A stretch of DNA of 64,000 nucleotides from an uncultured Clostridia bacterium (GTDB lineage: Bacteria > Bacillota > Clostridia > Oscillospirales > CAG-272), in the NCBI GenBank assembly GCA_945929845.1, contig CAMEON010000002.1:443-64442 (forward strand). Direction: 5' to 3'. The number at the start of each line of letters is the position of its first letter. Positions within the stretch are counted from its first letter, which is position 1. Shown here piece after piece: positions 2,762-60,045 of this stretch. Under the pieces are notes generated by a model, which had not been told where the DNA came from, did not search any database, and worked only from the letters and a program-made list of their open reading frames with translations. A program made the position numbers and the translations under genes.

Positions 2762-4798
2762 ATGAACATGAAAAGGAAAATCACACCATTCGTCAGTCTG
2801 CTTCTGGCACTTCAACTGTCCATCTCCGTATTGGTCTTCTCCGGTTGCACACCGTCGCAGAATAATAGTACGGAAACAAGCCCGACAACGCAGTTCGAAA
2901 ATGAAAGCGACACATCCGCCCCCGAGACCCAGCCAGACACCTTACCGCAAACAGATGCAGACACCGAAAAGGAAACCGAAAGCGAACCGCAGACTGAACC
3001 GGAGACCGAGGTGCAGACTGAGGCGGACACCCAACCGGAGGATGAGATCGTGGAAAGGAACATCGAGGAGCGTTACTTCATATTCCGCATATGGAATTTC
3101 AACGAGCGAGGGCTGAATACTTTCAAGTCCATCGTGGACACAGCCCAGCAGGCGGGGTTCACTGCAATCAAAATCCATATTCCGTGGGATCGTGTGGAGA
3201 AGACCGACGGCGTGTATGAGTATACGGCCTTTGACGATATGGTGGATTATGTCGTAGCCGAAAAAGGCATGAAGGTTGCCATCTCCCTGGATATGTCCCG
3301 GCGGGCCGGTGACTCTCTCATCCCGGAAGAGGATATTCAGCGGGATCGGGAGGGCAATCTCTGCGTCGGCGGCGCATACTATGCCCGCACAGCCTTCTCC
3401 TTCTGCTCTGAGTATGCGGTAGCCAAGGCCACGGCCTTCTACACCGATGCGGTCAAGCATTTTGACAGCCTGTACGGAGAGGAGATCCTCTTCTATCTTC
3501 CGGCCTTTTCCCAGTACTGTGAGACGGAGTACTGGTGCGCCGGTGAGTATGATTACTCGGAAAAGGCCGTCACCGCTTTCCGTTCCTGGCTGGCACAGTC
3601 GTACAGTACCATAGAGGACTTCAACCGGGCCACCGGCAGATCCTACGCCTCCTTTGATGAGATCATTCCGCCCTCCTGCACTGCCAGCGACAGTCTGGGG
3701 GTGCTGTGGTATCAGTTCCGCCATCAGAAGCTCAAGGCCATGATCGACACGCTGGCCACGGCGCAGAAGGAAGCCTGCCCCAATACCAAGATCACCATCC
3801 AGTTGGGATGCGTCTTTGACTCTGTCGCAGCCACCCGTTGTACCTTGGGCTTCGTTGACCTGTGCGAGCGTGTAGATGTGCTGTGGCTGGATGATGGGCC
3901 GGCTTACGACCACGCCTGGTCCATGGACTATGTCCGCAGTATGCTCCCTGCCCATATTGCCCTGGCGCAGGAGATCGACGGCCCTCTCCAGGCAAATGCC
4001 AGCGTGGAAAACTACCTGGATCAGGGTCTGACCGCCTTTGAACGGGAAGCCACCTATGTGAGTATCGCCAACTGGGACATCAATGACTACTACTATCGCT
4101 ATGAGGATACCTGGAAGCAGATCGCTTCCACCTGGTTGTGTCAGGATCCCCCTGCCGTGCTGAAGGTCACCCAGGATTCTCCGGTTCTGGAGGTATCCCT
4201 GTATGATATGTTCCGCATGAAGAGCCCCGATGGGTTCATCAGTAAGTACCACAGCCTGGCCCAGGATGGGCAGTCCGTCCGCATCAAGGTCATTGACGAT
4301 CTGACCGGGCGCACGGCGGACAGTACTTCCCTCTCTTACACATTCCCAAGCGGTTTTTCTGCCGAGCAAGGTACCAACGGCTGGTATTACATGAACCATC
4401 GGCGGGGCAAGTTCACGGAAATGACCTACGATGCAGAAAAACGCTGGTGGCAGGGAGCGGCGGCCTTCAACCTGATCATGGCCGACGGAACTGTTCACCC
4501 CGATACATACGATACGGCACTGGTATTTGAGGTGCCCGCAGACGGTACTGTCCAGTACTATTTCTTGCTGTCATTGATCTCTGACCAGAGTGATGGGGTG
4601 CGGGTCGCTGTGATGCGCAACGACGAGCGCATCTACCCGGCGGATTCCTCCTTTGCATCCGTAGCCCCTGCGTCCACGCTGGAGGAGACATTGACCATTA
4701 CAGTACAGAAGGGTGACCGGATCGCTCTGATCGTGAACCAAGGCTCAACCCATGCGAATGATTCCTCAAAGCTTTCTGTTTTCGTAGACTATCAGTAA
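2762..4798 (+). CDS. Lipoprotein, GH42/GH35-like TIM-barrel glycoside hydrolase candidate
   Basis: Lipobox signal MNMKRKITPFVSLLLALQLSISVLVFSGC, followed by an acidic T/E/P/Q linker. IKIHIPWDRVEKTDGVYEYTAFDDMVDYVVAEKGMKV resembles the N-terminal strands of GH42-type barrels. Confidence 0.5.
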   Translation: MNMKRKITPFVSLLLALQLSISVLVFSGCTPSQNNSTETSPTTQFENESDTSAPETQPDTLPQTDADTEKETESEPQTEPETEVQTEADTQPEDEIVERNIEERYFIFRIWNFNERGLNTFKSIVDTAQQAGFTAIKIHIPWDRVEKTDGVYEYTAFDDMVDYVVAEKGMKVAISLDMSRRAGDSLIPEEDIQRDREGNLCVGGAYYARTAFSFCSEYAVAKATAFYTDAVKHFDSLYGEEILFYLPAFSQYCETEYWCAGEYDYSEKAVTAFRSWLAQSYSTIEDFNRATGRSYASFDEIIPPSCTASDSLGVLWYQFRHQKLKAMIDTLATAQKEACPNTKITIQLGCVFDSVAATRCTLGFVDLCERVDVLWLDDGPAYDHAWSMDYVRSMLPAHIALAQEIDGPLQANASVENYLDQGLTAFEREATYVSIANWDINDYYYRYEDTWKQIASTWLCQDPPAVLKVTQDSPVLEVSLYDMFRMKSPDGFISKYHSLAQDGQSVRIKVIDDLTGRTADSTSLSYTFPSGFSAEQGTNGWYYMNHRRGKFTEMTYDAEKRWWQGAAAFNLIMADGTVHPDTYDTALVFEVPADGTVQYYFLLSLISDQSDGVRVAVMRNDERIYPADSSFASVAPASTLEETLTITVQKGDRIALIVNQGSTHANDSSKLSVFVDYQ

Positions 4799-4900
4799 GG
4801 CACAAGTCAGCCGGGGAAAGGAGTTGCCTCCGTACTGCTGCGTCACGCATCTGTACGCTTGGGGCATCTCCCTTCCCCGGCTTTCTATTTGCTTTGCTTT

Positions 4901-6823
4901 TTACAAGGGCTTCAAATATCCTCTGAAGGTCAGATAGGACAGGATCCCCTCGATGTTCACGGCACTTTCCCACGGGCGATACCGGCACCCCACCGGCACT
5001 CCCTCGCTGTAATACTCCGGCCAGGAAAGGCACTCGTCCATCGCATCCAGGCACAGGTCATAGTAGGTGTCGGCCAGCTCGCTCCTAATGCTGACCAGAT
5101 TATACAGGGTCAGGCCGTAGTCATACCCCACAATGCGCCCGGTGCGTTTCTCTATGGCACCTTCCAGGATGGTCTTCTCGGTCAGGGCGGCATCCGTCAG
5201 GTTGACATTCGTGTAGTTGGACATCAGGGTGACGGTAGGCAGGGCGTACCGTCTGACCTCCGGCACCCGCTCCATCCCCTTGGCCATGCAGTTGGGGCAC
5301 AGGAAGTTCCCGCTCTTGGTTCTGCGGAGGTGGTCAAAAGCATGGCATTCCGGATTTCTCCCCATGCCGTCGCATATGCCATAGGTGAAGCGCACGGACG
5401 CATAGGGGCGGTAGGCCGGATTGTTGGCATACAGCACGCCGCCTTCCATGAAATTCCCGGCAAAGCGGGCACGGGCCAGGGCGGCGTTCTCCCGTATTTC
5501 ACCCAGAAGATCCTCCGGGAGGAAGGCGACCTGATCCTGAAAGGCGATCAGCGCCTCGCAGGCGGCGGCGAACAGCATGGTTCCCTCCGCCGAGCCGTCC
5601 AGCAGACAGGAGCGAGGAAGGATCCCCCCGGCGATGTAGGTCTCATCCCCGTTGAAGGGTACCATCCCCTCATGGAAATGGGAGACGAGGCAGTGATACG
5701 CCCACAGGAGCATGGGATATGCCTCCGGTAGGATGGTGGTGTCTCCTGTCCTGTCCACATAGCAGCGTGCCAGCAGGATCAGGTAAGCCGTCATCTCCAC
5801 CTCATCGTTTTCCGCCGGGTGGAATATGTGTGGCACGCCGCACCCCTGGGCGTTCCTGACCTTCCCCTCCCGGGTGTAGGTGTCCATGAAGAAGCGCAGG
5901 ACTTTCTTTGCCTCCTCATGCAGACCCAGGGCAAGCATTCCCCGGGCGACCCCGTACTGATCCCGGACATAGCCCAGTCTGTAGCAGGATCCGGCCAGCA
6001 CGCCGCCTGCCCTTTCCTGTTGGGCGGTCAGGTTCCACACGGTGCCCAGAATGGCCTGCCGCACCTCCTCATATCGGGGCGTGTCGGCGGACAGGCGGCG
6101 CAGAATACCGCACGCATCCAGCACCCCCTGTGCATGGCGGTATGCGCTCTGCCGCATGTCCGCCTCCGACAGGTTCAGCACCCGGTCGGTATTCCGACAG
6201 ATCTCCTCATAATCCCGGCCGCTGACGAAGCAGATGTGGCTCTCCCCCGGGGAGAATGTGGCGCAGAGGCTCTTTTTGTCTTTTTCTTTGTCTTTGTCTT
6301 TTTCTTTGTCTTTATCTTTGTCGTCCCCCAGGCTGACTGTCACTGCCCCGAAGAACAGGAGGACATAGAACTGCTCAAAGCCCAGGGGCAGGCGGTTGTA
6401 CAGGTAGTTCCCGGCATAGGTCTCTATCATGACCGCCGCCTGGGCTGTGGGGTACAGCTCCGGCATCAGAATGGGCGGGTGGCACCCGGCACTCAACTGG
6501 GCTCCGATGGTGAAATCCATCCTGACCGTCTCCCTGACGCACACGCTCCGCACAAGGCAGGCACTCTCCGGAAGGGCGTAATCCACCACCTTTCCCACAG
6601 GGAGCTGTCCCAGCGGCTCCCCCCGCCGGAACAGCTCTGTCTCCCACACCGGCGCATCCCCCAGGCAATGGGAATCCATCGGCTGATCCACGCCACGGCA
6701 CACGGCGGAAAGGATGGGCGGAGACGAGTAGGGTGAGCCGAACAGGCTTTCTATATCCGCCTTCTTCATGTAGGCACAGATGGTGCCGTTCCCTACACAG
6801 TGAATGGCTTCTGTCTGTTTCAT
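4901..6823 (-). CDS. GH15-like (alpha/alpha)6-barrel protein (glucoamylase/glucodextranase-related) with a K/D/E low-complexity insert
   Basis: GYVRDQYGVARGMLALGLHEEAKKVLRFF and C-terminal RPWESAVNIEG are GH15-like. I place the start at the ATG at 6823 (MKQTEAIHC) because GGGGGAGG lies 7 nt upstream and the longer ORF (to 6949) would overlap trxB. Insert DDKDKDKEKDKDKEKDKK. Confidence 0.55.
   Translation of the reverse strand: MKQTEAIHCVGNGTICAYMKKADIESLFGSPYSSPPILSAVCRGVDQPMDSHCLGDAPVWETELFRRGEPLGQLPVGKVVDYALPESACLVRSVCVRETVRMDFTIGAQLSAGCHPPILMPELYPTAQAAVMIETYAGNYLYNRLPLGFEQFYVLLFFGAVTVSLGDDKDKDKEKDKDKEKDKKSLCATFSPGESHICFVSGRDYEEICRNTDRVLNLSEADMRQSAYRHAQGVLDACGILRRLSADTPRYEEVRQAILGTVWNLTAQQERAGGVLAGSCYRLGYVRDQYGVARGMLALGLHEEAKKVLRFFMDTYTREGKVRNAQGCGVPHIFHPAENDEVEMTAYLILLARCYVDRTGDTTILPEAYPMLLWAYHCLVSHFHEGMVPFNGDETYIAGGILPRSCLLDGSAEGTMLFAAACEALIAFQDQVAFLPEDLLGEIRENAALARARFAGNFMEGGVLYANNPAYRPYASVRFTYGICDGMGRNPECHAFDHLRRTKSGNFLCPNCMAKGMERVPEVRRYALPTVTLMSNYTNVNLTDAALTEKTILEGAIEKRTGRIVGYDYGLTLYNLVSIRSELADTYYDLCLDAMDECLSWPEYYSEGVPVGCRYRPWESAVNIEGILSYLTFRGYLKPL
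6271..6326 (-). repeat. Coding A/T-rich imperfect microsatellite (CTTTKT-like) encoding DDKDKDKEKDKDKEKDKK
   Basis: ctttttgtctttttctttgtctttgtctttttctttgtctttatctttgtcgtc inside an otherwise GC-rich gene. Confidence 0.9.
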
Positions 6824-6846
6824 GCTGGATGCCTCCCCCGTTATTG

Positions 6847-7773
6847 TCAGGACTGCCCCTTCTGATCCAGGTAGTCGCAGGCGGCCAGAGCGGCCACGGC
6901 ACCGTCTGCGGCGGCGGTAGTGACCTGACGGATGCGTTTCCTCCGGCAATCCCCGGCCACGAAGACACCGGGCACCGATGTGGTGCAGGACTCGTCAGCC
7001 TCCGCATAGCCCCACTGATCCAAAGTCAGGATGTTGGCAAAGGCAGTGTTCTGCGGCACAAGGCCAACAGCTACGAACAGGCCGTCCACCGACAGGTCTG
7101 TCGTGACCCCATCCGATACCCTGCGTATGCGGATACCGGTCAGCGCATCCTCGCCAAAGAGTGCATCCACCACATGGCCTGTGATGACCTCCACATTCTC
7201 CCGCTGGGACAGTTGCTCCTGTAGCTTCTGTTCCCCGGTCAAAAAGTCCAGATTCTGCACCACCGTGACCCGGGCGGCGGTGTCCGCCAGCAGGAGAGCC
7301 TCCTGGAGGGCGGAATTGCCGCCGCCCACCACCGCCACCGGTCGGTCGGCGTAAAAGGCTCCATCGCAGACGGCGCAGAAGGAGATACCGTTGCCGATCA
7401 GATCCTCCTCCCGGTCAAGGCCCAGCCGTCTGTGCCGGGCACCGGTGGCCACAATGACGGCCCTGGCAGTATACACCTGTCCGTCTGCCGTCACGGTGAA
7501 GCCCCCATCCGGCTCCTTCCCTGCCTCCACGGCTGTCACCTCGGCGGATTCCACATCCGCTCCCTGGGCCAGCACCTGATCCACCAGCTTCTCGGCAAAC
7601 TCATTGCCGGATACGGCGGCAAAGCCCGGAATATTCTCCACCTTGGGGGAGAAGGTGATCTGCCCTCCGAAGGTTTCTTTCTCAAGGATCAGCACAGTCT
7701 TGTTGGCGCGCCGGGCGTACAGAGCCGCTGTCAGGCCTGCCGGGCCGCCGCCTATGATCATGATGTCGTACAT
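6847..7773 (-). CDS. trxB: Thioredoxin-reductase-like flavoprotein (low-Mr TrxR family) lacking the NADPH HRRxxxR motif
   Basis: MYDIMIIGGGPAGLTAALYA (FAD GxGxxG), redox CAVCDG, second GGGNSALQEA Rossmann motif, C-terminal GVFVAGDC. The position of HRRxxxR reads VQNLDFLTGEQ. Start at 7773 with GGAAAGGAAG upstream. Confidence 0.8.
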   Translation of the reverse strand: MYDIMIIGGGPAGLTAALYARRANKTVLILEKETFGGQITFSPKVENIPGFAAVSGNEFAEKLVDQVLAQGADVESAEVTAVEAGKEPDGGFTVTADGQVYTARAVIVATGARHRRLGLDREEDLIGNGISFCAVCDGAFYADRPVAVVGGGNSALQEALLLADTAARVTVVQNLDFLTGEQKLQEQLSQRENVEVITGHVVDALFGEDALTGIRIRRVSDGVTTDLSVDGLFVAVGLVPQNTAFANILTLDQWGYAEADESCTTSVPGVFVAGDCRRKRIRQVTTAAADGAVAALAACDYLDQKGQS

Positions 7774-7848
7774 GGTCAGCTTCCTTTCCCCGGGTCTTCC
7801 CCGGATATACATATGCGGGGGACTTTCCATGAGAAAGCCCCCCTTCGC

Positions 7849-10263
7849 TTATGAAAGCGTAGCAAGGAATCGCTTGATCTCCGGCAGACCGACATACTTC
7901 TCGGTCTCTCCGTTCTTCTCTATGACCAGCGTTGGTGCCTGACGGACGCCGTAGCTCTTCGCCAGATCCATATGCTCATTGGCATACACCTTTTCATACC
8001 CGAAGCCCATCTTATCCATGGCGGATGCGGCGATCTTGCAGTTGGGGCAGGTGGGCGTGGCGAACAGGTATACCACGGCATCCTTCCCTGTCTGAGTAGC
8101 CGCCTCCGCTACCGACTCCATCTGCTCCCGGGCAGAGCAGGGACAGGTGTCAACAAACTCGGGAAGCGGGCCTTTATGGGTCAGCACGGAACGGGCGGTG
8201 TCGTAGGTCTTTCTGTCCTTGAACTCCTGGGCCTTGCCGTCGTTCCAGTTCTGCACCGTGCGGTAGTACCCGGTGATGCGGCTGTACACCTCTGCCGGCT
8301 CTCCGCAGTGAGGGCAGGTGTGCTGTTCCCCGGGCAGATACCCGTGGGTACGGCATACCGAGTAGGTGGGAGACAGGGTGTAGTAGGGCAGGCGGTAATT
8401 CTCTGCGATCTTGCGCACCAGGTTGGCCGCGGCCTTCCAGTCGGGCAGCTTCTCCCCTAAGAAGGCATGGAACACGGTACCGGAGGTGTACAGGGTCTGA
8501 AGCTCGTCCTGCACATCCAGGGCGGTGAAAATATCATCGGTGTACCCCACAGGCAGGTGGGAGGAGTTGGTGTAGTAGGGCGTATCGCTCGCAGTCTTTG
8601 CGGCAGTGATGATGTCGGGATACTGTTCCTTGTCGTGCCGGGCCAGGCGGTAGGCGGTGGACTCGGCGGGGGTGGCCTCCAGGTTGTACAGGTCGCCGTA
8701 CATCTCCTGGTAGTCGCTGAGACGCTCACGCATGTGGTCCAGCACCTGCTTGGTGAACTCCTGGCACTTGGGGCTGGTCATGTCAGCCCGGATCCACTTG
8801 GCGTTCAGGCCCGCCTCGTTCATGCCCACAAGGCCGATGGTGGAGAAGTGGTTGTTGAAGGTGCCCAGATACCGCTTGGTGTAGGGGTACAGGCCATTCT
8901 CCAGCAGTTCGGTGATGACATTCCGCTTGACCTTCAGGGAACGGGCGGCGATGTCCATCATGTGATCCAGCCGCTTGTAGAAGTCCGCCTCATCGGTGGC
9001 CAGGTAGGCGATCCGAGGCATATTGATGGTGACCACGCCCACGGAACCGGTGCTCTCGCCGCTTCCGAAGAAGCCACCGGACTTCTTGCGCAGTTCCCGC
9101 AGATCCAGGCGCAGGCGGCAGCACATGGAGCGCACATCGCTGGGTTCCATATCGCTGTTGATATAGTTGGAAAAGTAGGGAGTGCCGTACTTGGAGGTCA
9201 TCTCAAACAGGAGCCGGTTATTCTCGGTGTCAGACCAGTCGAAGCTTCTGGTGATGGAGTAGGTGGGGATGGGGTACTGGAAGCCACGGCCGTTGGCATC
9301 TCCGTCGATCATGGTCTCGATGAAGGCCTTGTTGATGATGTCCATTTCCCGCTGGCAATCCTTGTACTTGAAGTCCATCTCCTTACCGCCCACAATGCAG
9401 TTCTGCTCTGCCAGGTCAGCCGGTACCACCCAGTCCAGGGTGATGTTGGAGAAGGGAGCCTGGGTGCCCCACCGGGAAGGAGTATTGACGCCGTAAATGA
9501 AGGACTCGATGCACTTCTTGACCTGGTCGTAGTTCAGATTGTCCGTCCGGACGAAGGGAGCCAGGTAGGTATCGAAGGAGGAGAACGCCTGGGCACCGGC
9601 CCACTCGTTCTGCATGATGCCCAGGAAGTTCACCATCTGGTTGCACAGGGTGGCCAGGTGCTTGGCCGGGGCGGAGGTGATCTTTCCGGTCACACCGCCA
9701 AGCCCCTCCTGGATCAACTGCTTGAGAGACCAGCCGGCGCAGTAGCCGGTGAGCATGGACAGGTCGTGAATGTGGATGGCGGCGCTGCGGTGAGCGTCGG
9801 CGATCTCCTGATCGTACACCTCAGACAGCCAGTAGTTGGCGGTGATGGCACCGGAGTTGGACAGGATCAGGCCGCCCACCGAGTAGGTGACCGTGGAGTT
9901 CTCCTTGACTCGCCAGTCGTTGACCTTCAGGTAATTGTCCACGATCTTCTTGTAGTCCAGAAGGGTGGTGCTGGCATTGCGCACCCGCTCCCTCTGCTTA
10001 CGGTAGAGGATGTAGGCTTTGGCCACATCGTCATACCCGGCTTTGATCAGGACGGACTCCACGCTGTCCTGGATATCCTCCACGGTGATCCTCCCGTCCT
10101 TGATCTTGGGCTGAAACTCCGCCGTGACCTTCAGAGCCAGGAAATCCAGCGTGTCCTGATTATAGTTCAACTCGCAGGCATCAAAAGCCTTTTTGATGGC
10201 ATTTTCAATCTTTTGCAGATTGAAGTCAACCACTTTTCCGTCGCGCTTTACCACAGTGTACAT
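7849..10263 (-). CDS. nrdD: Anaerobic (class III) ribonucleoside-triphosphate reductase with a fused C-terminal thioredoxin-fold domain
   Basis: N-terminal ATP-cone (MYTVVKRDGKVVDFNLQKIENAIKKAF), finger-loop SMCCRLRLD, Zn site CPHCG, glycyl-radical motif SRITGYYR. An extra ~80 aa follow, with VVYLFATPTCPNCKIAASAM...APTLVIEKNGE (CxxC Trx fold). Confidence 0.9.
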   Translation of the reverse strand: MYTVVKRDGKVVDFNLQKIENAIKKAFDACELNYNQDTLDFLALKVTAEFQPKIKDGRITVEDIQDSVESVLIKAGYDDVAKAYILYRKQRERVRNASTTLLDYKKIVDNYLKVNDWRVKENSTVTYSVGGLILSNSGAITANYWLSEVYDQEIADAHRSAAIHIHDLSMLTGYCAGWSLKQLIQEGLGGVTGKITSAPAKHLATLCNQMVNFLGIMQNEWAGAQAFSSFDTYLAPFVRTDNLNYDQVKKCIESFIYGVNTPSRWGTQAPFSNITLDWVVPADLAEQNCIVGGKEMDFKYKDCQREMDIINKAFIETMIDGDANGRGFQYPIPTYSITRSFDWSDTENNRLLFEMTSKYGTPYFSNYINSDMEPSDVRSMCCRLRLDLRELRKKSGGFFGSGESTGSVGVVTINMPRIAYLATDEADFYKRLDHMMDIAARSLKVKRNVITELLENGLYPYTKRYLGTFNNHFSTIGLVGMNEAGLNAKWIRADMTSPKCQEFTKQVLDHMRERLSDYQEMYGDLYNLEATPAESTAYRLARHDKEQYPDIITAAKTASDTPYYTNSSHLPVGYTDDIFTALDVQDELQTLYTSGTVFHAFLGEKLPDWKAAANLVRKIAENYRLPYYTLSPTYSVCRTHGYLPGEQHTCPHCGEPAEVYSRITGYYRTVQNWNDGKAQEFKDRKTYDTARSVLTHKGPLPEFVDTCPCSAREQMESVAEAATQTGKDAVVYLFATPTCPNCKIAASAMDKMGFGYEKVYANEHMDLAKSYGVRQAPTLVIEKNGETEKYVGLPEIKRFLATLS

Positions 10264-10345
10264 AAGTCCTACTCCTTCTTGTTTTGTCTTTTCTATGTTT
10301 CATTCCGTCCGCTTCGTGGGGACGGCGAGCGTATCGTGCTCCCAT

Positions 10346-10374
10346 AGTGTATCATATTCCGATCCGTTTGTCAA
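10346..10374 (-). promoter_or_regulatory. Putative nrdD promoter TTGACA-17-TACACT
   Basis: The minus strand reads TTGACAAACGGATCGGAATATGATACACT. TG lies one nt before the -10. Just downstream of NrdR box 1. Confidence 0.5.
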
Positions 10375-10382
10375 TACCCTGT

Positions 10383-10459
10383 TCACAATATTTTGTGTTA
10401 TTTTTTGCTTTTGACCCAACATATTGTGTCCCATACCCTGCGGTGCCCGGATATTGTGT
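10383..10459 (-). promoter_or_regulatory. Three NrdR-box-like sites phased at 30-31 bp upstream of nrdD
   Basis: TCACAATATTTTGTGT (10383-10398) and ACCCAACATATTGTGT (10414-10429) each match acaCwAtATaTwGtgt at about 14/16. TGCCCGGATATTGTGT (10444-10459) has a good right half only. Confidence 0.65.
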
Positions 10460-10473
10460 GCCCTGCCCGGATC

Positions 10474-11175
10474 TCACACGCCCCGCAGACTGACTGTCAG
10501 TCCGCCCGCTTCAGCCGCAGTCCTCAGGCTCTCCAGTGCCTCCCTTGGCAGGGGCCGGAGGCCGGGGCGCAGAAGATGCCCGCTGTCCTCAAAGTTCTGG
10601 AGGAAGTACCGGGGGGCACCGGATATCCAGGCGGCGATGGCGGATATGTCCTCCGGGGTATGGTAGTCATTCAGCACGGTGGTGCGGAATTCATAGTCCA
10701 CATGACCCTCCAGCAGGTAGGCCACGCTCTGCTTGATGGGCATCAGTTCCAGGTTTGGCACCCCTGCCGTCATGGCGTACTTCGCCGGGCTGTTCTTGAT
10801 GTCCATAGCCACATAGTCCACAAGCCCCTCCTCCACCAATGCCCGCAGGCGATCCGGGAAGGTACCGTTGGTATCCAGCTTCACCGGGTAGCCCAGTGAC
10901 CGGACGGATCGGAGAAAAGCCGGAAGCTCTTTCTGAAGCAGAGGCTCGCCGCCGGTGATGCACACCCCGTCCAGAAGGCCCTGTCGCTTTTTCAGGAAGG
11001 TCAGCACCTCCCCATCCCGGATCAGGCTGTTCTCCTCTACCTGCGCCAGCTCCGTGACAAGGCCGGCGTTGTGGCAGAAGGGACAGCGCAGATTACAACC
11101 ACCGGTGAACAGCGTACAGGCCACCTTGCCGGGGTAGTCCAACAGGGTCATTTTCTGAAATCCGTAAAATATCAT
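10474..11175 (-). CDS. nrdG: Anaerobic ribonucleotide reductase activating protein (radical SAM)
   Basis: GFQKMTLLDYPGKVACTLFTGGCNLRCPFCHN radical-SAM CxxxCxxC cluster motif, ~230 aa, adjacent to nrdD on the same strand. Confidence 0.85.
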   Translation of the reverse strand: MIFYGFQKMTLLDYPGKVACTLFTGGCNLRCPFCHNAGLVTELAQVEENSLIRDGEVLTFLKKRQGLLDGVCITGGEPLLQKELPAFLRSVRSLGYPVKLDTNGTFPDRLRALVEEGLVDYVAMDIKNSPAKYAMTAGVPNLELMPIKQSVAYLLEGHVDYEFRTTVLNDYHTPEDISAIAAWISGAPRYFLQNFEDSGHLLRPGLRPLPREALESLRTAAEAGGLTVSLRGV

Positions 11176-11277
11176 ACGGGTACCGCCTCTCCTGATTTTC
11201 CGTTACGGTTCATCCGATCCGCAAAAGGGTACGCCGGGGCTTCCTGATACGGTAGCCGAACCGCTACGCATACCGGA

Positions 11278-11311
11278 CAGAAAGCTCCGGCGGTTGGTGA
11301 ATCCGCCGGAG
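11278..11311 (-). terminator. Hairpin after the cytidylate-kinase-like gene
   Basis: CTCCGGCGG-9 nt-CCGCCGGAG followed on the minus strand by CTTTCTGT (weak T-tract). Confidence 0.4.
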
Positions 11312-11342
11312 AGTCCCCTGCACCTCATGTCTCCGACGCCCG

Positions 11343-11924
11343 TCAGAGAAGCTCCACATGGGCATACCGAACCGGGTCGGTCTGGTAATCCGTAAAGGCC
11401 GACCAGATCTGATCCACCATTTCCTCCGGCGTGCGGCTGGTAGAATCAAGAACCAGGTTGTAATTATTGTAATCATAGTAATCCATGCCGTACAGCTCAA
11501 GGAAGCGCTTCTGCTCCACCTGGCTCCGCTGGATCAGCATGTCCCTGGCTTCCTCCACCGATGCGTAGGACTCCACCTCGCCTCTCGGGGCGGCCATGAC
11601 CCGCTCGGCGGCTACGGTGGGGTCCACCGTCAGGAAGATCTTGAAGGTATTCTCGGCAAAGTGCCATGCCATACGGGAATCAAAGATGATCCGGTCGTCC
11701 TTGCGCTCCCTTGAAATGCGTGTGGTGGTGGCATCAATGACATCGTCCAGCGTATGATCGATCTTCATGAGCCGATTCAGCTCCAGGGTGGAGATCCCCT
11801 TCTCCCGGGCGACCTCTCTCTGAATGGCTCCGGTAGAAAAGATCTCGTAGCCGTATCGGTCATGGATCAGGTGACAGACGGTGGATTTTCCGCTTCCCAG
11901 CTTGCCTGTGATGGATATGTGCAT
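11343..11924 (-). CDS. Cytidylate-kinase-like P-loop NMP kinase family protein
   Basis: Walker A MHISITGKLGSGKSTV. Overall pattern matches the Cytidylate_kin2-type (archaeal-like CMP kinase) family. Confidence 0.6.
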   Translation of the reverse strand: MHISITGKLGSGKSTVCHLIHDRYGYEIFSTGAIQREVAREKGISTLELNRLMKIDHTLDDVIDATTTRISRERKDDRIIFDSRMAWHFAENTFKIFLTVDPTVAAERVMAAPRGEVESYASVEEARDMLIQRSQVEQKRFLELYGMDYYDYNNYNLVLDSTSRTPEEMVDQIWSAFTDYQTDPVRYAHVELL

Positions 11925-12011
11925 GGCTATTCTCCTTCGTTTACTTTCGGTCGTGTCTTTGGGTTTTCTTTTTGTGCCTTATGTCGGTGTCGCAATGTGT
12001 GCGTGCAAAGG

Positions 12012-12755
12012 TCACGCCAATTCAATGGTGATCTTCCCGATCCGCTTCTTCATCTTGTGCAGGTCAAGCAGCATTTTGAAGGCATCCGAGAAGACATGCA
12101 CCTTGGACTCCCGGTGGTTGATGATCCTGACCGGAATTTCCTTGATGGTCATGCCCAGCTTCTTGGCCCACAGAATGGCCTCGAAGTCAAAGGCAAAGCC
12201 GTTGACCTCGCAACGGGAGAAGATCTTCTGCGCCGCTTCCTTGGTGAAAGCCTTACAGCCGCACTGGGAATCGGACAATTTGAAGCCGCCCACGAAGCAC
12301 AGCACCTTGATATACACCTTGGAGGCCAGGCGGCGGATGAAGGTGTACCCCTCGTAGCCGTCCTTGGACAGGTTTCGGGAGCCGATGATGATGTCCGCCC
12401 CGTGGCCGGAGTCACTGCGGCTGGCCTCCTCTAAGAAGGCGTTGTAAACCTGCTTGATGACATCGGTACCGTACGCCAGATCCGCATCGGTGAACATGAT
12501 AAAGTCCCCCTCTGCGGCCAGCATGGCGGTGCGGACGGCACAGCCCTTCCCCCGGTTGTCCGGGTAACCCACCACACGGACATGGGGCAGGTGCAGTGCC
12601 TCCACGGTCTTGTCACAGCCATCCTTGCTTCCGTCGTTGGAAAACAGAATTTCGTAATCCTCAAAATTCTTTTCCATGTAGTCCGACAGGGTGCGGGCGG
12701 TATCGGCGATGATGCTGTTCTCGTTATACATGGGAATGCAAAGTGAAAATTTCAT
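12012..12755 (-). CDS. Family 2 glycosyltransferase (dolichyl/polyprenyl-phosphate hexosyltransferase-like)
   Basis: MKFSLCIPMYNE...ILFSNDGSKDG...FTDADL (GT2 DxD region). Start taken at the ATG at 12755; the ORF-track start at 12785 would overlap the upstream gene. Confidence 0.75.
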   Translation of the reverse strand: MKFSLCIPMYNENSIIADTARTLSDYMEKNFEDYEILFSNDGSKDGCDKTVEALHLPHVRVVGYPDNRGKGCAVRTAMLAAEGDFIMFTDADLAYGTDVIKQVYNAFLEEASRSDSGHGADIIIGSRNLSKDGYEGYTFIRRLASKVYIKVLCFVGGFKLSDSQCGCKAFTKEAAQKIFSRCEVNGFAFDFEAILWAKKLGMTIKEIPVRIINHRESKVHVFSDAFKMLLDLHKMKKRIGKITIELA

Positions 12756-12781
12756 ATGCTTACGCTCTTTTCCTTTCCGGA

Positions 12782-13678
12782 TCACTCACGATCCTTCCTT
12801 CTGTAGATGAAGAAGTCAAAACAAGCTTCGCTCTCCAGCACATCCAGCCCCTTGAGCCTCTCCTTCCCCTCCTGGCTTGTCCGCCAGTAGTATGGGGTCA
12901 TGGCGAACAGAGCCTGCACATCCGCTTCCCCGCACACCCGCAGGGGGAAGGTCACATGCCGGGTGTCCACAAGCACCAGGGAATGGGTATCATCCGGGAG
13001 ATCCCGGCGGGGCTGGTTGATGTAGGGGTCGTCGTACAGGATCCGCTTCAGCCCCATCAGGTGTCCGGCTCCTGCGCCTGCCACGATCAGGAAGCCTCCC
13101 GGCTTCAGCACCCGGGCAAACTCCGCCGGCGCACAGGGGGCAAACAGGCTTGTGACACAGTCTGCCGATCCATCCTGCACGGGCAGATCGAACACGCTGG
13201 CCACGGCGAACACGGTGCGGCTGCCGGGATCCCTTTGCCGGTTTCTGCGTGCGGTGCGAGTCGCCGCATCGGCGGCGTACTTGGAAAGATCCACCCCCAG
13301 CACGGCGTACCCCTCCCCGGCCAACCGATTGGAGTAGTACCCTTCCCCGCATCCGGCATCCAAGACAGCACCCCCTGCCGGGATCAGCTCCCTGACGATG
13401 CCGCAGAGGGCATCGGCGGCGGGCTGGTAATACCCCCGTTCCAGGAAGGCCGAGCGACTGCGCACGGCCTCCTTGGCATCTCCGCCGCCGGGATGGCGGG
13501 GAGAGAGGGAGACATACCCGCCCCCTCCGCCGTCGAAACAGTGTCTACGGGCACCGGTACAGACAAGGGAGCGTCCGTCCCCGGAGATCTGCATCCCCGC
13601 CCCGCACACAGGGCAGGCCAGCATATGCCGCACAATATGGGGGTCAAGCGTACCGTTCAGATCCGGCATATGTTCCAT
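12782..13678 (-). CDS. rlmA: RlmA-like 23S rRNA (guanine-N1)-methyltransferase (Zn-ribbon plus class I SAM MTase)
   Basis: N-terminal CPVCGAGM...CTGARRHCFD...GYVSL zinc ribbon, SAM motif LDAGCGEGYYS. Confidence 0.6.
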   Translation of the reverse strand: MEHMPDLNGTLDPHIVRHMLACPVCGAGMQISGDGRSLVCTGARRHCFDGGGGGYVSLSPRHPGGGDAKEAVRSRSAFLERGYYQPAADALCGIVRELIPAGGAVLDAGCGEGYYSNRLAGEGYAVLGVDLSKYAADAATRTARRNRQRDPGSRTVFAVASVFDLPVQDGSADCVTSLFAPCAPAEFARVLKPGGFLIVAGAGAGHLMGLKRILYDDPYINQPRRDLPDDTHSLVLVDTRHVTFPLRVCGEADVQALFAMTPYYWRTSQEGKERLKGLDVLESEACFDFFIYRRKDRE

Positions 13679-58620: not shown

Positions 58621-60045
58621 TTACTTGTTTTTCAGGTACTCGTCAATGGCACGGGCGGCGGTCTTGCCTGCGCCCATAGCCAGGATGACAGTGGCGGCAC
58701 CGGTCACGGCATCGCCGCCGGCATACACGCCCTCCCGGGAGGTAAGACCGGTCTTCTCCTCCACGATGATGCCGCCGTGGCTGTTGACATCCAGACCCTT
58801 GGTGGTGGATTTGATCAGGGGGTTGGGAGAGGTACCGATGGACATGATCACGCAGTCCACATCCAGTTCAAACTCGGAACCGGGCACCTCCACCGGACGG
58901 CGGCGACCCTTGGCATCCGGCTCGCCCAGCTCCATGCGGATGCAACGGATGCCCCGGACAAAGCCGTTCTTGGGATCCCTGCGGTCATCCGGGTTGTTGT
59001 AGCCCAGGATCTCCACCGGGTTGTTGAGCAGGCGGAACTGAATGCCTTCCTCCATGGCGTGCTCCACCTCTTCCCGACGGGCAGGCAGTTCTTCCATGGA
59101 GCGGCGGTAGATGATGGAGACCTCATCGGCACCCAGACGCAGGGCTGTACGGGCGGCGTCCATAGCCACATTGCCGCCGCCGACCACAGCCACCTTACGG
59201 GCCTCCATGACCGGGGTAGCAGAGCCTTCCCGGTAGGCCTTCATCAGGTTGTTCCGGGTCAGGAACTCGTTGGCGGAGTACACACCCTTGAGGGATTCAC
59301 CGGGGATGCCCATGAACCGGGGCAGACCGGCACCGGAGCCGATGAACACAGCCTCGTAGCCGTCCTCGAACAGCTCGTCCACGGTGATGGTCTTGCCGAT
59401 GACCACATTGGTCATCATCTCCACACCCATAGCCTTCAGGGTGTCCACTTCCTTCTGCACGATGGCCTTGGGCAGACGGAACTCCGGAATACCGTACATC
59501 AACACACCGCCGGCCACATGCAGAGCCTCAAACACCGTCACGGCGTACCCTTCTTTGGCCAGGTCTCCGGCGCAGGTCAGGCCGGAGGGGCCGGAACCGA
59601 CGATAGCCACCTTATGGCCGTTGGGAGCAGGGACAGTCGGCTTTTCTGTGGCATATGTATTGTGCCAGTCAGCCACGAATCGCTCCAGCCGTCCGATGCC
59701 TACCGGCTCGCCCTTGATGCCCCGGACGCACTTGGACTCGCACTGCGTTTCCTGGGGACACACACGGCCGCAGACAGCGGGCAGAGAGGAGGACTGATGG
59801 ATGACCTGGTAGGCACCCTCAAAGTCGCCCTCAGCCACCTTGGAAATGAACTCGGGAATGTGGATGTTCACCGGACAACCGCTCACGCAGGCAGGATTCT
59901 TACAGTTAAGACAGCGGGCAGCCTCGTCCAGGGCAGTGGCCTCATCGTACCCCAGAGCCACCTCGTTAAAGTTATGGGCCCGGACAGCCGGATCCTGGGT
60001 GGGCATGGGGTTCTTCTTCAGCGACATATTCTTCTTGACCGGCAT
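58621..60045 (-). CDS. nfnB: NfnB / GltD-like NADPH-dependent flavoprotein with two [4Fe-4S] clusters
   Basis: EAARCLNCKNPACVSGCPVNIHIP...AVCGRVCPQETQCE...VAIVGSGPSGLTCA...VAVVGGGNVAMD. The start lies 1 nt after the nfnA stop. Confidence 0.8.
   Translation of the reverse strand: MPVKKNMSLKKNPMPTQDPAVRAHNFNEVALGYDEATALDEAARCLNCKNPACVSGCPVNIHIPEFISKVAEGDFEGAYQVIHQSSSLPAVCGRVCPQETQCESKCVRGIKGEPVGIGRLERFVADWHNTYATEKPTVPAPNGHKVAIVGSGPSGLTCAGDLAKEGYAVTVFEALHVAGGVLMYGIPEFRLPKAIVQKEVDTLKAMGVEMMTNVVIGKTITVDELFEDGYEAVFIGSGAGLPRFMGIPGESLKGVYSANEFLTRNNLMKAYREGSATPVMEARKVAVVGGGNVAMDAARTALRLGADEVSIIYRRSMEELPARREEVEHAMEEGIQFRLLNNPVEILGYNNPDDRRDPKNGFVRGIRCIRMELGEPDAKGRRRPVEVPGSEFELDVDCVIMSIGTSPNPLIKSTTKGLDVNSHGGIIVEEKTGLTSREGVYAGGDAVTGAATVILAMGAGKTAARAIDEYLKNK

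What the first reader, a model, noticed from the sequence alone, without database searches (positions are those of the whole stretch)
6847..7773. TrxB-like gene downstream of nrdD lacks the NADPH-binding HRRxxxR motif (possible ferredoxin- or NADH-linked reductase)
SEEN: FAD motif, redox-active CAVC and the second GGGNSA Rossmann motif are present. Where NADPH-dependent low-Mr TrxRs have HRRxxxR (the 2'-phosphate binding arginines), this protein reads VTVVQNLDFLTGEQ (nt ~7228-7270). The gene starts 75 nt after the nrdD stop on the same strand. ESTABLISHED: clostridial TrxR-like flavoproteins lacking this motif include ferredoxin-dependent flavin thioredoxin reductases and NADH-dependent variants. 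INFERENCE: nrdD(-Trx)-trxB may form a self-contained electron chain from ferredoxin or NADH through the flavoprotein and the fused redoxin to the class III RNR.
Basis: partly seen in the sequence, partly recalled or inferred. Interest (0 to 1): 0.6.

Follow-up and report, generated by a model that had tools for sequence, protein, structure and literature searches.

The report
NADH-type thioredoxin reductase beside fused anaerobic RNR
A gut Clostridia bacterium encodes its only thioredoxin reductase directly after its only ribonucleotide reductase, which carries a fused thioredoxin-like domain; the reductase has swapped the NADPH-phosphate arginines for a conserved Gln-Asn-Leu motif, so DNA-precursor synthesis is probably driven by NADH rather than formate, NADPH or ferredoxin.

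Summary
The gene lies on the minus strand (6847-7773), 75 nt after nrdD. It keeps GGGPAG, CAVC and GGGNSA, and reads VTVVQNLDFLTGE where E. coli TrxB has VHLIHRRDGFRAE.

This is a conserved alternative motif, Q[N/D]LxxLT, not decay. It is invariant among close homologues. It also occurs in the solved Thermosipho africanus enzyme (7JYP) and in the Thermotoga maritima enzyme, which a paper I read reports as NADH-preferring. The motif arose several times independently: a tree holding all such enzymes as one clade was rejected (AU p=0.0002).

The protein is not a clostridial ferredoxin-dependent reductase (FFTR) and not TRi-like. Its pyrophosphate loop is intact, and it matches FFTR structures far more weakly than ordinary thioredoxin reductases.

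In 33 of 43 related genera that carry the fused NrdD, this reductase gene follows directly. In this genome it is the only thioredoxin reductase found, NrdD is the only ribonucleotide reductase found, and no true pyruvate formate-lyase was detected.

Best reading: NADH → flavoprotein → tethered CPNC redoxin (and free thioredoxin) → thiol-type NrdD. The electron donor is inferred, not shown.

This scan has flagged the same arrangement in other genomes. I rate it a new variant of a known kind, of moderate interest.

The parts
6847..7773 (-). trxB-like gene, 308 aa: a low-Mr thioredoxin-reductase-fold flavoprotein of the 'Q-type'
   Evidence: ORF and translation. Pfam Pyr_redox_2 at 3.7e-47. TIGR01292 at 315.8 bits, below its cut-off. 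AF2 model pLDDT 84, with best folds in the PDB all TrxRs.
7735..7752 (-). FAD-binding GGGPAG (aa 8-13)
7366..7377 (-). Redox-active CAVC (aa 133-136)
   Evidence: The cysteine pair is kept in all nrdD-linked homologues.
7309..7326 (-). Pyrophosphate-binding loop GGGNSA (aa 150-155) of the second Rossmann fold
   Evidence: Invariant in alignment A1. It is degenerate in TRi (GEGxxA, read) and reported degenerate or absent in FFTR/CpFTR.
7228..7269 (-). VTVVQNLDFLTGEQ (aa 169-182). Q173-N174-L175...T179 replaces H-R-R...R of NADPH enzymes. Q173 sits at the C-terminal end of strand beta2.
   Evidence: Alignments. Strand E168-173 in the model. Invariance of the motif.
7774..7848 (-). 75-nt nrdD-trxB spacer. 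It holds a 12-bp GC-rich hairpin without a U-tract, then an AGGAAG ribosome-binding site.
   Evidence: Fold of -39.4 kcal/mol, z = -3.64. No terminator-like site on the minus strand.
7849..10263 (-). nrdD, 804 aa: ATP-cone, class III RNR body, and a C-terminal thioredoxin-fold domain
   Evidence: Pfam ATP-cone, NRDD and Thioredoxin. NF006126 at 1136 bits.
7852..8097 (-). Fused redoxin domain (aa 723-804), with TPTCPNC (Cys739/Cys742) and cis-Pro APTL
   Evidence: Pfam Thioredoxin/Glutaredoxin hits. C17, P18, C20 and P55 invariant in 29 relatives. 31% identity to the C-terminal unit of the T. maritima Grx-like protein, pairwise E 3e-10.
9115..9126 (-). Finger-loop motif MCCR (aa 380-383), the double-cysteine type
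   Evidence: Meaning of MCCR versus MGCR taken from PMC9669993.
8677..8679 (-). Glu529 of NrdD, aligned with T. maritima NrdD Glu495 (NIEQVPAE versus NLEATPAE)
10338..10473 (-). nrdG-nrdD spacer: NrdR-box-like repeats about 31 nt apart, followed by a TTGACA-17-TACACT promoter-like site
   Evidence: Read by eye against the NrdR consensus and not tested statistically.
10474..11175 (-). nrdG, the class III RNR activase (radical SAM)
   Evidence: TIGR02495 NrdG2 at 210.6 bits, above its 131 cut-off.

Best explanation
The gene encodes a low-molecular-weight thioredoxin reductase of a distinct 'Q-type'. Its FAD site, CxxC pair and dinucleotide pyrophosphate loop are intact. The 2'-phosphate clamp HRRxxxR has been replaced by a conserved Q-(N/D)-L-x-x-L-T.

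Proposed chain (inferred, not shown): NADH, probably preferred over NADPH, reduces the FAD. The FAD reduces the CAVC pair. CAVC reduces the CPNC redoxin domain tethered to the C-terminus of NrdD, and also the cell's single free thioredoxin. The tethered redoxin then re-reduces the active-site cysteine pair of a thiol-type (MCCR + Glu) class III ribonucleotide reductase.

The two genes probably form one NrdR-controlled unit. Because this is the only TrxR and NrdD the only RNR found in the genome, the enzyme would be both the housekeeping reductase and the obligatory electron supplier for dNTP synthesis.
For: Sequence anatomy:
- All catalytic motifs are present, only the arginines are gone, and there is no shift in the alignment.
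- Q173 lies at the end of beta2, the classic NAD/NADP discriminator position.
- The motif is under constraint: Q173/N174/L175/T179/G180/E181 and G150-A155 are invariant.

Link to enzymes described elsewhere:
- The best PDB match, 7JYP (T. africanus TrxR, E 4e-70), reads MVQNLPYLTAAK.
- In a genome whose single contig is 1,860,725 bp (the length I remember for T. maritima MSB8), the TrxR reads ITMIQLLETLTAA. It follows a 221-aa Grx-like gene with TPTCPYC, and is 41% identical to P0001.
- Valette et al. 2017 state that the T. maritima enzyme lacks HRR and prefers NADH over NADPH.
- E. coli AhpF, an NADH enzyme by established knowledge, has the Arg-free VTLLEFAPEMKAD at the same columns.

Repeated origin:
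- Q-type enzymes form at least 4-5 separately supported clades nested among HRR types.
- Holding them as one clade is rejected, delta lnL 188, p-AU 0.0002. Repeated arrival at one motif argues for a defined function rather than loss.

Coupling to NrdD:
- 33 of 43 genera with the fused NrdD have this gene directly downstream on the same strand, and 37 of 43 within 2.2 kb.
- 60 of 80 species-genome loci with the motif have the fused NrdD upstream.
- Nothing else downstream is conserved.
- NrdD has MCCR and the Glu equivalent to Tm E495.
- No class I/II RNR domain and no PFL equivalog were found in the 93%-complete genome.
- It is the only TrxR, and there is one free Trx.

Predicted binding of the reductase to the fused domain: ipSAE 0.53 against a best control of 0.00. 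The tool calls this 'weak support'. The runs agree in at least 94% of contacts and the partner pLDDT is at least 82. TrxR-Trx complexes are solved, so the pass may come from memory of those.
Against: - No enzymology exists for any nrdD-linked Q-type enzyme, so NADH preference is an analogy to Thermotoga.
- The Thermotogae Q-types are not the sister group of the clostridial ones, so the shared motif is convergent and its function could differ.
- Gln is not the acidic residue typical of strict NAD enzymes, so dual specificity or residual NADPH use is possible.
- The Yang & Ma 2010 paper itself could not be read.
- Five genera keep HRRDxFRGE in the same nrdD-linked position, so the chain does not require the Q-type.
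- NrdD keeps the Met of MCCR, which by Burnim et al. leaves formate use open.
- A strong hairpin sits in the spacer.
Confidence: 0.5

Rival explanations
1. Ferredoxin- or flavodoxin-dependent flavin thioredoxin reductase, functionally like an FFTR. Low-potential electrons from PFOR/ferredoxin would reach NrdD through the flavoprotein, with no pyridine nucleotide involved.
For: - The arginines of the NADPH site are absent.
- Clostridia do have TrxR-like enzymes that use ferredoxin.
- A small side branch inside the clostridial Q clade has also lost the GGG loop (GDANTA...TLFDKFF), showing drift away from nucleotide binding in this lineage.
Against: - GGGNSA is invariant, whereas FFTRs and TRi are described as lacking or degrading this loop.
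- FFTR structures 6GNA/6GNC/6GND match at only 1e-30 to 1e-33, and TRi 5NII at 2e-29, against 4e-70 for 7JYP.
- The protein nests among NADPH-type TrxRs in trees.
- There is no cyanobacterial-type aromatic C-terminal tail; the sequence ends DYLDQKGQS.
- No ferredoxin gene is conserved nearby.
Confidence: 0.1
2. Still an NADPH enzyme, or one with no real preference. The 2'-phosphate would be accommodated by other residues, and the motif change would be neutral or would tune affinity only.
For: - Gln is uncharged and would not repel a phosphate.
- The T. maritima enzyme is reported to use both nucleotides.
- Sister nrdD-linked enzymes with HRR do the same job in five genera.
- An NfnB/GltA-type gene in the window suggests the cell can make NADPH.
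Against: - All four basic residues are lost together.
- The replacement is invariant and was reached independently several times, which is not what neutral drift gives.
- No compensating Arg or Lys lies between aa 165 and 190 apart from R167 and R190 at the edges.
Confidence: 0.2
3. An ordinary housekeeping thioredoxin reductase whose position after nrdD reflects co-regulation only. The fused redoxin would be reduced by something else, or NrdD would run on formate.
For: - It is the only TrxR in the genome and a free Trx exists.
- NrdD keeps the Met of the formate-type chemistry.
- Thirteen Q-type loci in other phyla have no nrdD nearby.
Against: - The adjacency is kept across dozens of genera while the downstream genes change.
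- TrxBs not next to nrdD in the same family are of a different, HRR lineage.
- No PFL equivalog was found to make formate.
- The fused domain has the TPTCPxC signature of the Thermotoga TrxR partner.
Confidence: 0.15

Closest known systems
Thermotoga maritima thioredoxin reductase with its glutaredoxin-like protein (Yang & Ma 2010), and the Thermosipho africanus TrxR structure 7JYP
   Same: - Low-Mr TrxR fold, intact GGGxSA loop, and Q-x-L-x-x-L-T in place of HRRxxxR.
- 41% identity to the Thermotoga enzyme.
- The partner redoxin carries TPTCPxC.
- The organism also has a double-Cys + Glu NrdD that needs a protein reductant.
   Different: - Here the redoxin is a single Trx-fold unit fused to NrdD rather than a free 221-aa two-unit protein.
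- The reductase gene follows nrdD rather than the redoxin gene.
- The clostridial and Thermotogae Q-types are separate clades.
- The nucleotide preference is untested here.
Thioredoxin-dependent class III RNR ('NrdD2': Neisseria bacilliformis, T. maritima; Wei et al. 2014)
   Same: Double-cysteine finger loop, an active-site Glu, and a thiol protein rather than formate as reductant.
   Different: - The redoxin is covalently fused, and the reductase is in the same operon and Arg-less.
- Met is retained (MCCR, not SCCR).
- Wei 2014 itself could not be read.
Canonical NADPH-thioredoxin reductase (E. coli TrxB; TIGR01292)
   Same: Fold, FAD motif, CxxC and GGGxxA, at 37% identity.
   Different: HRRxxxR is absent, and the score is below the equivalog cut-off.
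[quoted passage not shown]
   Same: TrxR fold without the 2'-phosphate arginines, found in anaerobes.
   Different: Those enzymes have a degenerate pyrophosphate loop and form separate families. The matches here are weak.
AhpF C-terminal reductase module (E. coli)
   Same: An Arg-free motif at the same columns (E-F-A-P-E-M-K versus Q-N-L-D-F-L-T), and GGGNS in the loop. It uses NADH (established knowledge).
   Different: AhpF has Glu rather than Gln, an N-terminal double-redoxin domain, and a peroxiredoxin as its target.

Membership tests
NADPH-dependent low-Mr thioredoxin reductase (NTR, TIGR01292) | FAD GxGxxG, a redox-active CxxC in the nucleotide domain, and a GGGxxA pyrophosphate loop | tested here: met
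   GGGPAG, CAVC and GGGNSA
NADPH-dependent low-Mr thioredoxin reductase (NTR, TIGR01292) | HRRxxxR 2'-phosphate clamp | tested here: not met
   QNLDFLT at the aligned columns, with no shift
NADPH-dependent low-Mr thioredoxin reductase (NTR, TIGR01292) | Score above the curated equivalog cut-off | tested here: not met
   315.8 bits against 343.45
Clostridial FFTR | Loss of both GxGxxA and HRRxxxR (as used by Anjou et al. 2024) | tested here: not met
   GGGNSA is present and invariant
Clostridial FFTR | Clusters with FFTR sequences | tested here: not met
   6GNA/6GNC/6GND at E 1e-30 to 1e-33, against 1e-60 to 1e-70 for NTR-like structures. The protein nests among HRR types.
Clostridial FFTR | Flavin reduced by ferredoxin and not by NAD(P)H | not testable with these tools
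   Needs enzymology
Desulfovibrio-type TRi | T-Q/N-G-K motif and a GEGxxAxN loop | tested here: not met
   Motifs taken. 5NII matches at 2e-29. A true TRi-like gene exists in a relative (L057) and looks different.
Thermotoga-type NADH-preferring TrxR ('Q-type') | Gln at the end of beta2, no Arg cluster, Q-x-L-x-x-L-T, and an intact GGGxSA loop | tested here: met
Thermotoga-type NADH-preferring TrxR ('Q-type') | Partner is a Grx/PDO-like redoxin with TPTCPxC | tested here: met
   The fused domain against the T. maritima 221-aa protein: 31% identity, E 3e-10
Thermotoga-type NADH-preferring TrxR ('Q-type') | Common descent with the Thermotogae enzymes | tested here: not met
   Separate clades, and a single clade is rejected at p-AU 0.0002. 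It works like one, but is not a member by descent.
Thermotoga-type NADH-preferring TrxR ('Q-type') | Preference for NADH over NADPH | not testable with these tools
   Known only from the literature statement on the T. maritima enzyme
Thiol-dependent class III RNR (NrdD2) | Second cysteine in the finger loop (xCCR) | tested here: met
   MCCR at aa 380-383
Thiol-dependent class III RNR (NrdD2) | Active-site glutamate | tested here: met
   Glu529 aligns with T. maritima Glu495. That residue 495 is the defining Glu is from my memory of Wei 2014.
Thiol-dependent class III RNR (NrdD2) | Turnover with a thioredoxin system and without formate | not testable with these tools
   Needs an anaerobic enzyme assay

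The most novel reading that the evidence does not exclude
The replacement of HRRxxxR by Q-(N/D/L)-L-x-x-L-T, reached independently in Clostridia, Thermotogae (twice) and Mollicutes-like lineages, may mark a discrete NADH-specific class of thioredoxin reductase. In hundreds of gut Clostridia species this enzyme, together with a redoxin tethered to NrdD, would make the sole ribonucleotide reductase formate-independent. It would also tie dNTP synthesis directly to the NADH/NAD+ ratio.
Probability: 0.4. Interest if true: 0.6.

Novelty: new variant of a known kind. Interest (0 to 1): 0.5.

Why it matters
Class III ribonucleotide reductases are usually taught as formate-dependent. Thiol-dependent ones are known from only a few enzymes, and their physiological reductase is poorly defined.

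Here the whole chain is written in one operon: a flavoprotein, a tethered redoxin and the RNR. It occurs in a large group of uncultured gut Clostridia, where it appears to be the only route to DNA precursors.

A simple sequence rule also follows. An intact GGGxxA loop plus Q-x-L-x-x-L-T would predict NADH use. A degenerate loop would predict ferredoxin or another donor. That rule would improve annotation of the many 'FAD-dependent oxidoreductase' entries in anaerobes, and it offers a natural, repeated experiment in cofactor-specificity switching. It also bears on how drugs that target thioredoxin reductase might affect gut commensals.

Tried and rejected
- **RNA evidence for co-transcription.** Contigs from four pig-gut or 'whole organism' RNA libraries were laid on 6700-10400. 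They cover parts of nrdD and parts of the trxB-like gene, but none bridges 7692-7815. Contigs cannot show a transcript in any case, so nothing can be concluded.
- **Rfam.** No RNA family was found in 4000-13000.
- **Papers that could not be read.** Wei 2014 (PMC4246965), Yang & Ma 2010 (PMC2820846) and Susanti 2017 (PMC5579543) are not held. A search for '7JYP' found no relevant paper.
- **AU test under the mixture model.** It did not finish in three attempts, so the LG+G4 run was used instead.
- **Shifted-motif idea.** The 'HRR' at aa 114-116 was considered and rejected, because it aligns with E. coli ASARY upstream of the CxxC.
- **An FFTR-like branch inside the Q clade.** P0158 (GDANTA/TLFDKFF) is not FFTR-like by PDB matches.
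- **Distant Q-type representatives.** P0186, P0204 and P0152 were looked up for nrdD neighbours. None was found, and two lie on phage-like contigs.
- **A conserved third gene downstream of trxB.** None was found.
- **Structure model.** It gave the fold only.

Full report
**What is there.**
- On the minus strand the window carries nrdG (10474-11175), a 210-nt spacer, nrdD (7849-10263), a 75-nt spacer, and a 308-aa flavoprotein gene (6847-7773).
- Pfam and NCBIfam call the first nrdG (NrdG2). They call the second a class III RNR with an ATP-cone and an extra C-terminal thioredoxin-fold domain. They call the third a thioredoxin-reductase-like protein that scores just under the TIGR01292 cut-off, 315.8 against 343.45 bits.
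It did not state that the genes lie on the minus strand.

**The motif.**
- I aligned the protein with E. coli TrxB taken from NC_000913.3. VHLIHRRDGFRAEKIL lines up, without gaps, with VTVVQNLDFLTGEQKL. So the His and the three Arg residues are replaced by Gln, Asn, Leu and Thr.
- An 'HRR' at residues 114-116 is not a displaced copy. It aligns with E. coli ASARY before the CxxC.
- In the AlphaFold model (pLDDT 84), Gln173 ends strand beta2 of the second Rossmann unit. That is the usual NAD/NADP discriminator position.
- In 24 homologues of 67-87% identity, Q173, N174, L175, T179, G180 and E181 and the whole GGGNSA loop are invariant. This is a conserved alternative site, not a decayed one.

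**Which known kind does it resemble?**
- The best PDB match is 7JYP (E 4e-70), the Thermosipho africanus thioredoxin reductase. It reads MVQNLPYLTAAK at the same place.
- Ordinary NADPH enzymes follow closely. Clostridial FFTRs (6GNA/6GNC/6GND, E 1e-30 to 1e-33), Desulfovibrio TRi (5NII, 2e-29) and the cyanobacterial enzymes are much weaker matches.
- The literature describes FFTRs as lacking both GxGxxA and HRRxxxR, and describes TRi as having a degenerate GEGxxA loop. A TRi-like gene in a related genome shows that pattern.
- The present protein keeps the loop, so I reject membership of FFTR and of TRi.
- I sampled 70 thioredoxin reductases of the class Thermotogae: 37 have HRR and 33 have Q-x-L-x-x-L-T.
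- One of these genomes has a single contig of 1,860,725 bp, which I remember as the length of T. maritima MSB8. There, a 221-aa two-unit glutaredoxin-like gene (TPTCPYC) is followed 7 nt later by a reductase reading ITMIQLLETLTAA, 41% identical to the window's protein.
- Valette et al. 2017 state that the T. maritima enzyme lacks HRR and prefers NADH over NADPH. I could not read the original paper.
- E. coli AhpF, an NADH enzyme by established knowledge, has the Arg-free VTLLEFAPEMKAD at the same columns.

**Evolution.**
- Among the 150 best cluster representatives out of 1.8 billion proteins, 29 of the 138 near-full-length ones carry the Q-type motif.
- In a FastTree of these plus the family's genes, the clostridial Q-types form one clade (62 leaves, 58 of them Q-type, support 0.992). 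It nests among HRR-type enzymes, including HRR-type enzymes that also sit next to nrdD in sister genera.
- With the motif columns removed and Thermotogae and other phyla added, Q-types fall into several separately supported clades: one in Clostridia, two in Thermotogae and one Mollicutes-like, plus a lone Vagococcus row in the smaller IQ-TREE set.
- Holding them together costs 188 log-likelihood units (p-AU 0.0002, LG+G4). One caveat is that I had seen an earlier tree before naming the group.
- The same replacement has therefore been reached repeatedly, which argues that it encodes a particular property.

**Coupling to NrdD.**
- In 61 genomes, one per genus, of the window's family, 43 have an NrdD covering residues 1 to about 800, that is, with the fused domain.
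- In 33 of these the reductase gene is directly downstream on the same strand: 27 Q-type, 5 HRR-type and 1 not read. In 4 more it lies within 2.2 kb.
- Thioredoxin reductase genes elsewhere in these genomes are nearly all HRR-type lineages; the exceptions read include a second Q-type copy (L061) and two degenerate ones (L057, TRi-like; L068).
They are mostly Oscillospiraceae, Acutalibacteraceae, Ruminococcaceae, Lachnospiraceae and Faecalibacterium, plus Erysipelotrichaceae, Acholeplasmataceae, Mycoplasmatota, Kosmotogaceae and others.
- Of the 80 loci returned, 60 have the NrdD fusion upstream and 7 are cut by contig ends. The remaining 13 have none; nine of these are distant (36-45% identical, mostly other phyla) and four are Clostridia MAGs 56-61% identical (L089, L094, L104, L133).
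- Nothing downstream of the reductase is conserved.
- The fused domain keeps L-F-x-T-x-T-C-P-x-C and the cis-Pro. The linker varies in length and often, but not always, carries Cys pairs.
- NrdD has the MCCR finger loop, and a Glu aligned with T. maritima Glu495. According to Burnim et al. this leaves both thiol and formate chemistry possible.
- In this 93%-complete genome I found no class I/II RNR domain and no PFL equivalog. There is one free thioredoxin and no second thioredoxin reductase.
- A complex prediction of the reductase with the fused domain gave ipSAE 0.53 against 0.00 for the controls, which the tool calls weak support. Contacts agree at 94% or more and the partner pLDDT is at least 82. 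Solved TrxR-Trx complexes may explain the pass.

**Regulation.**
- NrdR-box-like repeats about 31 nt apart and a good promoter-like site lie between nrdG and nrdD.
- The nrdD-trxB spacer has a strong hairpin without a U-tract and no terminator-like site.
- RNA-library contigs did not bridge the junction.

**Verdict.**
- The electron-chain idea is well supported by conservation.
- Of the two donors proposed, NADH is favoured and ferredoxin is unlikely. The donor remains an inference until it is assayed.
- This scan has reported the same fused NrdD plus Arg-less reductase in other genomes.

Noticed in passing
window 10338-10473 (-): Two to three NrdR-box-like 16-mers (ACACAATATGTTGGGT, ACACAAAATATTGTGA, with starts 31 nt apart) lie just upstream of a TTGACA-17-TACACT promoter-like site. 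They sit between nrdG and nrdD, so nrdD and trxB may be a separate NrdR-controlled unit.
   Followed up: partly
window 7800-7845 (-): A 12-bp GC-rich hairpin lies directly after the nrdD stop codon, with no U-tract (95-nt fold -39.4 kcal/mol, z -3.64). Relatives have spacers of only 9-40 nt, so this is specific to this genome. It could be an RNA-stability or partial-termination element.
   Followed up: partly
window 7852-8200 (-), NrdD aa ~690-722: The linker between the glycyl-radical domain and the redoxin carries a CPC pair. In relatives the linker varies in length and often holds CxC, CC or CCC, but not always. It might act as a shuttle cysteine pair, like the C-terminal tails of class I/II RNRs.
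   Followed up: partly
window 4901-6823 (-): A 640-aa gene starts 23 nt after the trxB stop and has no Pfam hit at E<=0.001. It contains a K/D/E repeat run. It is not conserved downstream of trxB in relatives.
   Followed up: partly
window 58621-60045 (-): A GltA/NfnB-type 'NADPH-dependent glutamate synthase' homologue (TIGR01316, 573 bits, above its cut-off). It is a possible NADH/ferredoxin:NADP oxidoreductase subunit, which bears on which reduced nucleotides the cell has.
   Followed up: no
L071:964-1878 and L073:4018-4962: Distant Q-type TrxR-like genes lie on metagenomic contigs packed with small unannotated ORFs. Neighbours include DUF5662, an RF-1/PCRF gene and NADAR. These look like phage genomes carrying a thioredoxin reductase.
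   Followed up: no
L057 (G017:C24:91018-91863): A relative in the same family carries a second, TRi-like reductase. Its best PDB match is Desulfovibrio 5NII, its loop reads GAGQYA, and it has no HRR.
   Followed up: partly
G000 whole genome: No class I/II RNR large-subunit domain and no PFL equivalog were found in the 93%-complete assembly. Two other glycyl-radical enzymes are present (C21, 851-aa frame; C12, 746-aa frame).
   Followed up: partly
L265:1299-2924: The genome with a 1,860,725-bp contig (probably T. maritima MSB8) has the Grx-like gene (221 aa, TPTCPYC) and the Q-type reductase 7 nt apart. This is the free-standing counterpart of the fused system seen here.
   Followed up: yes
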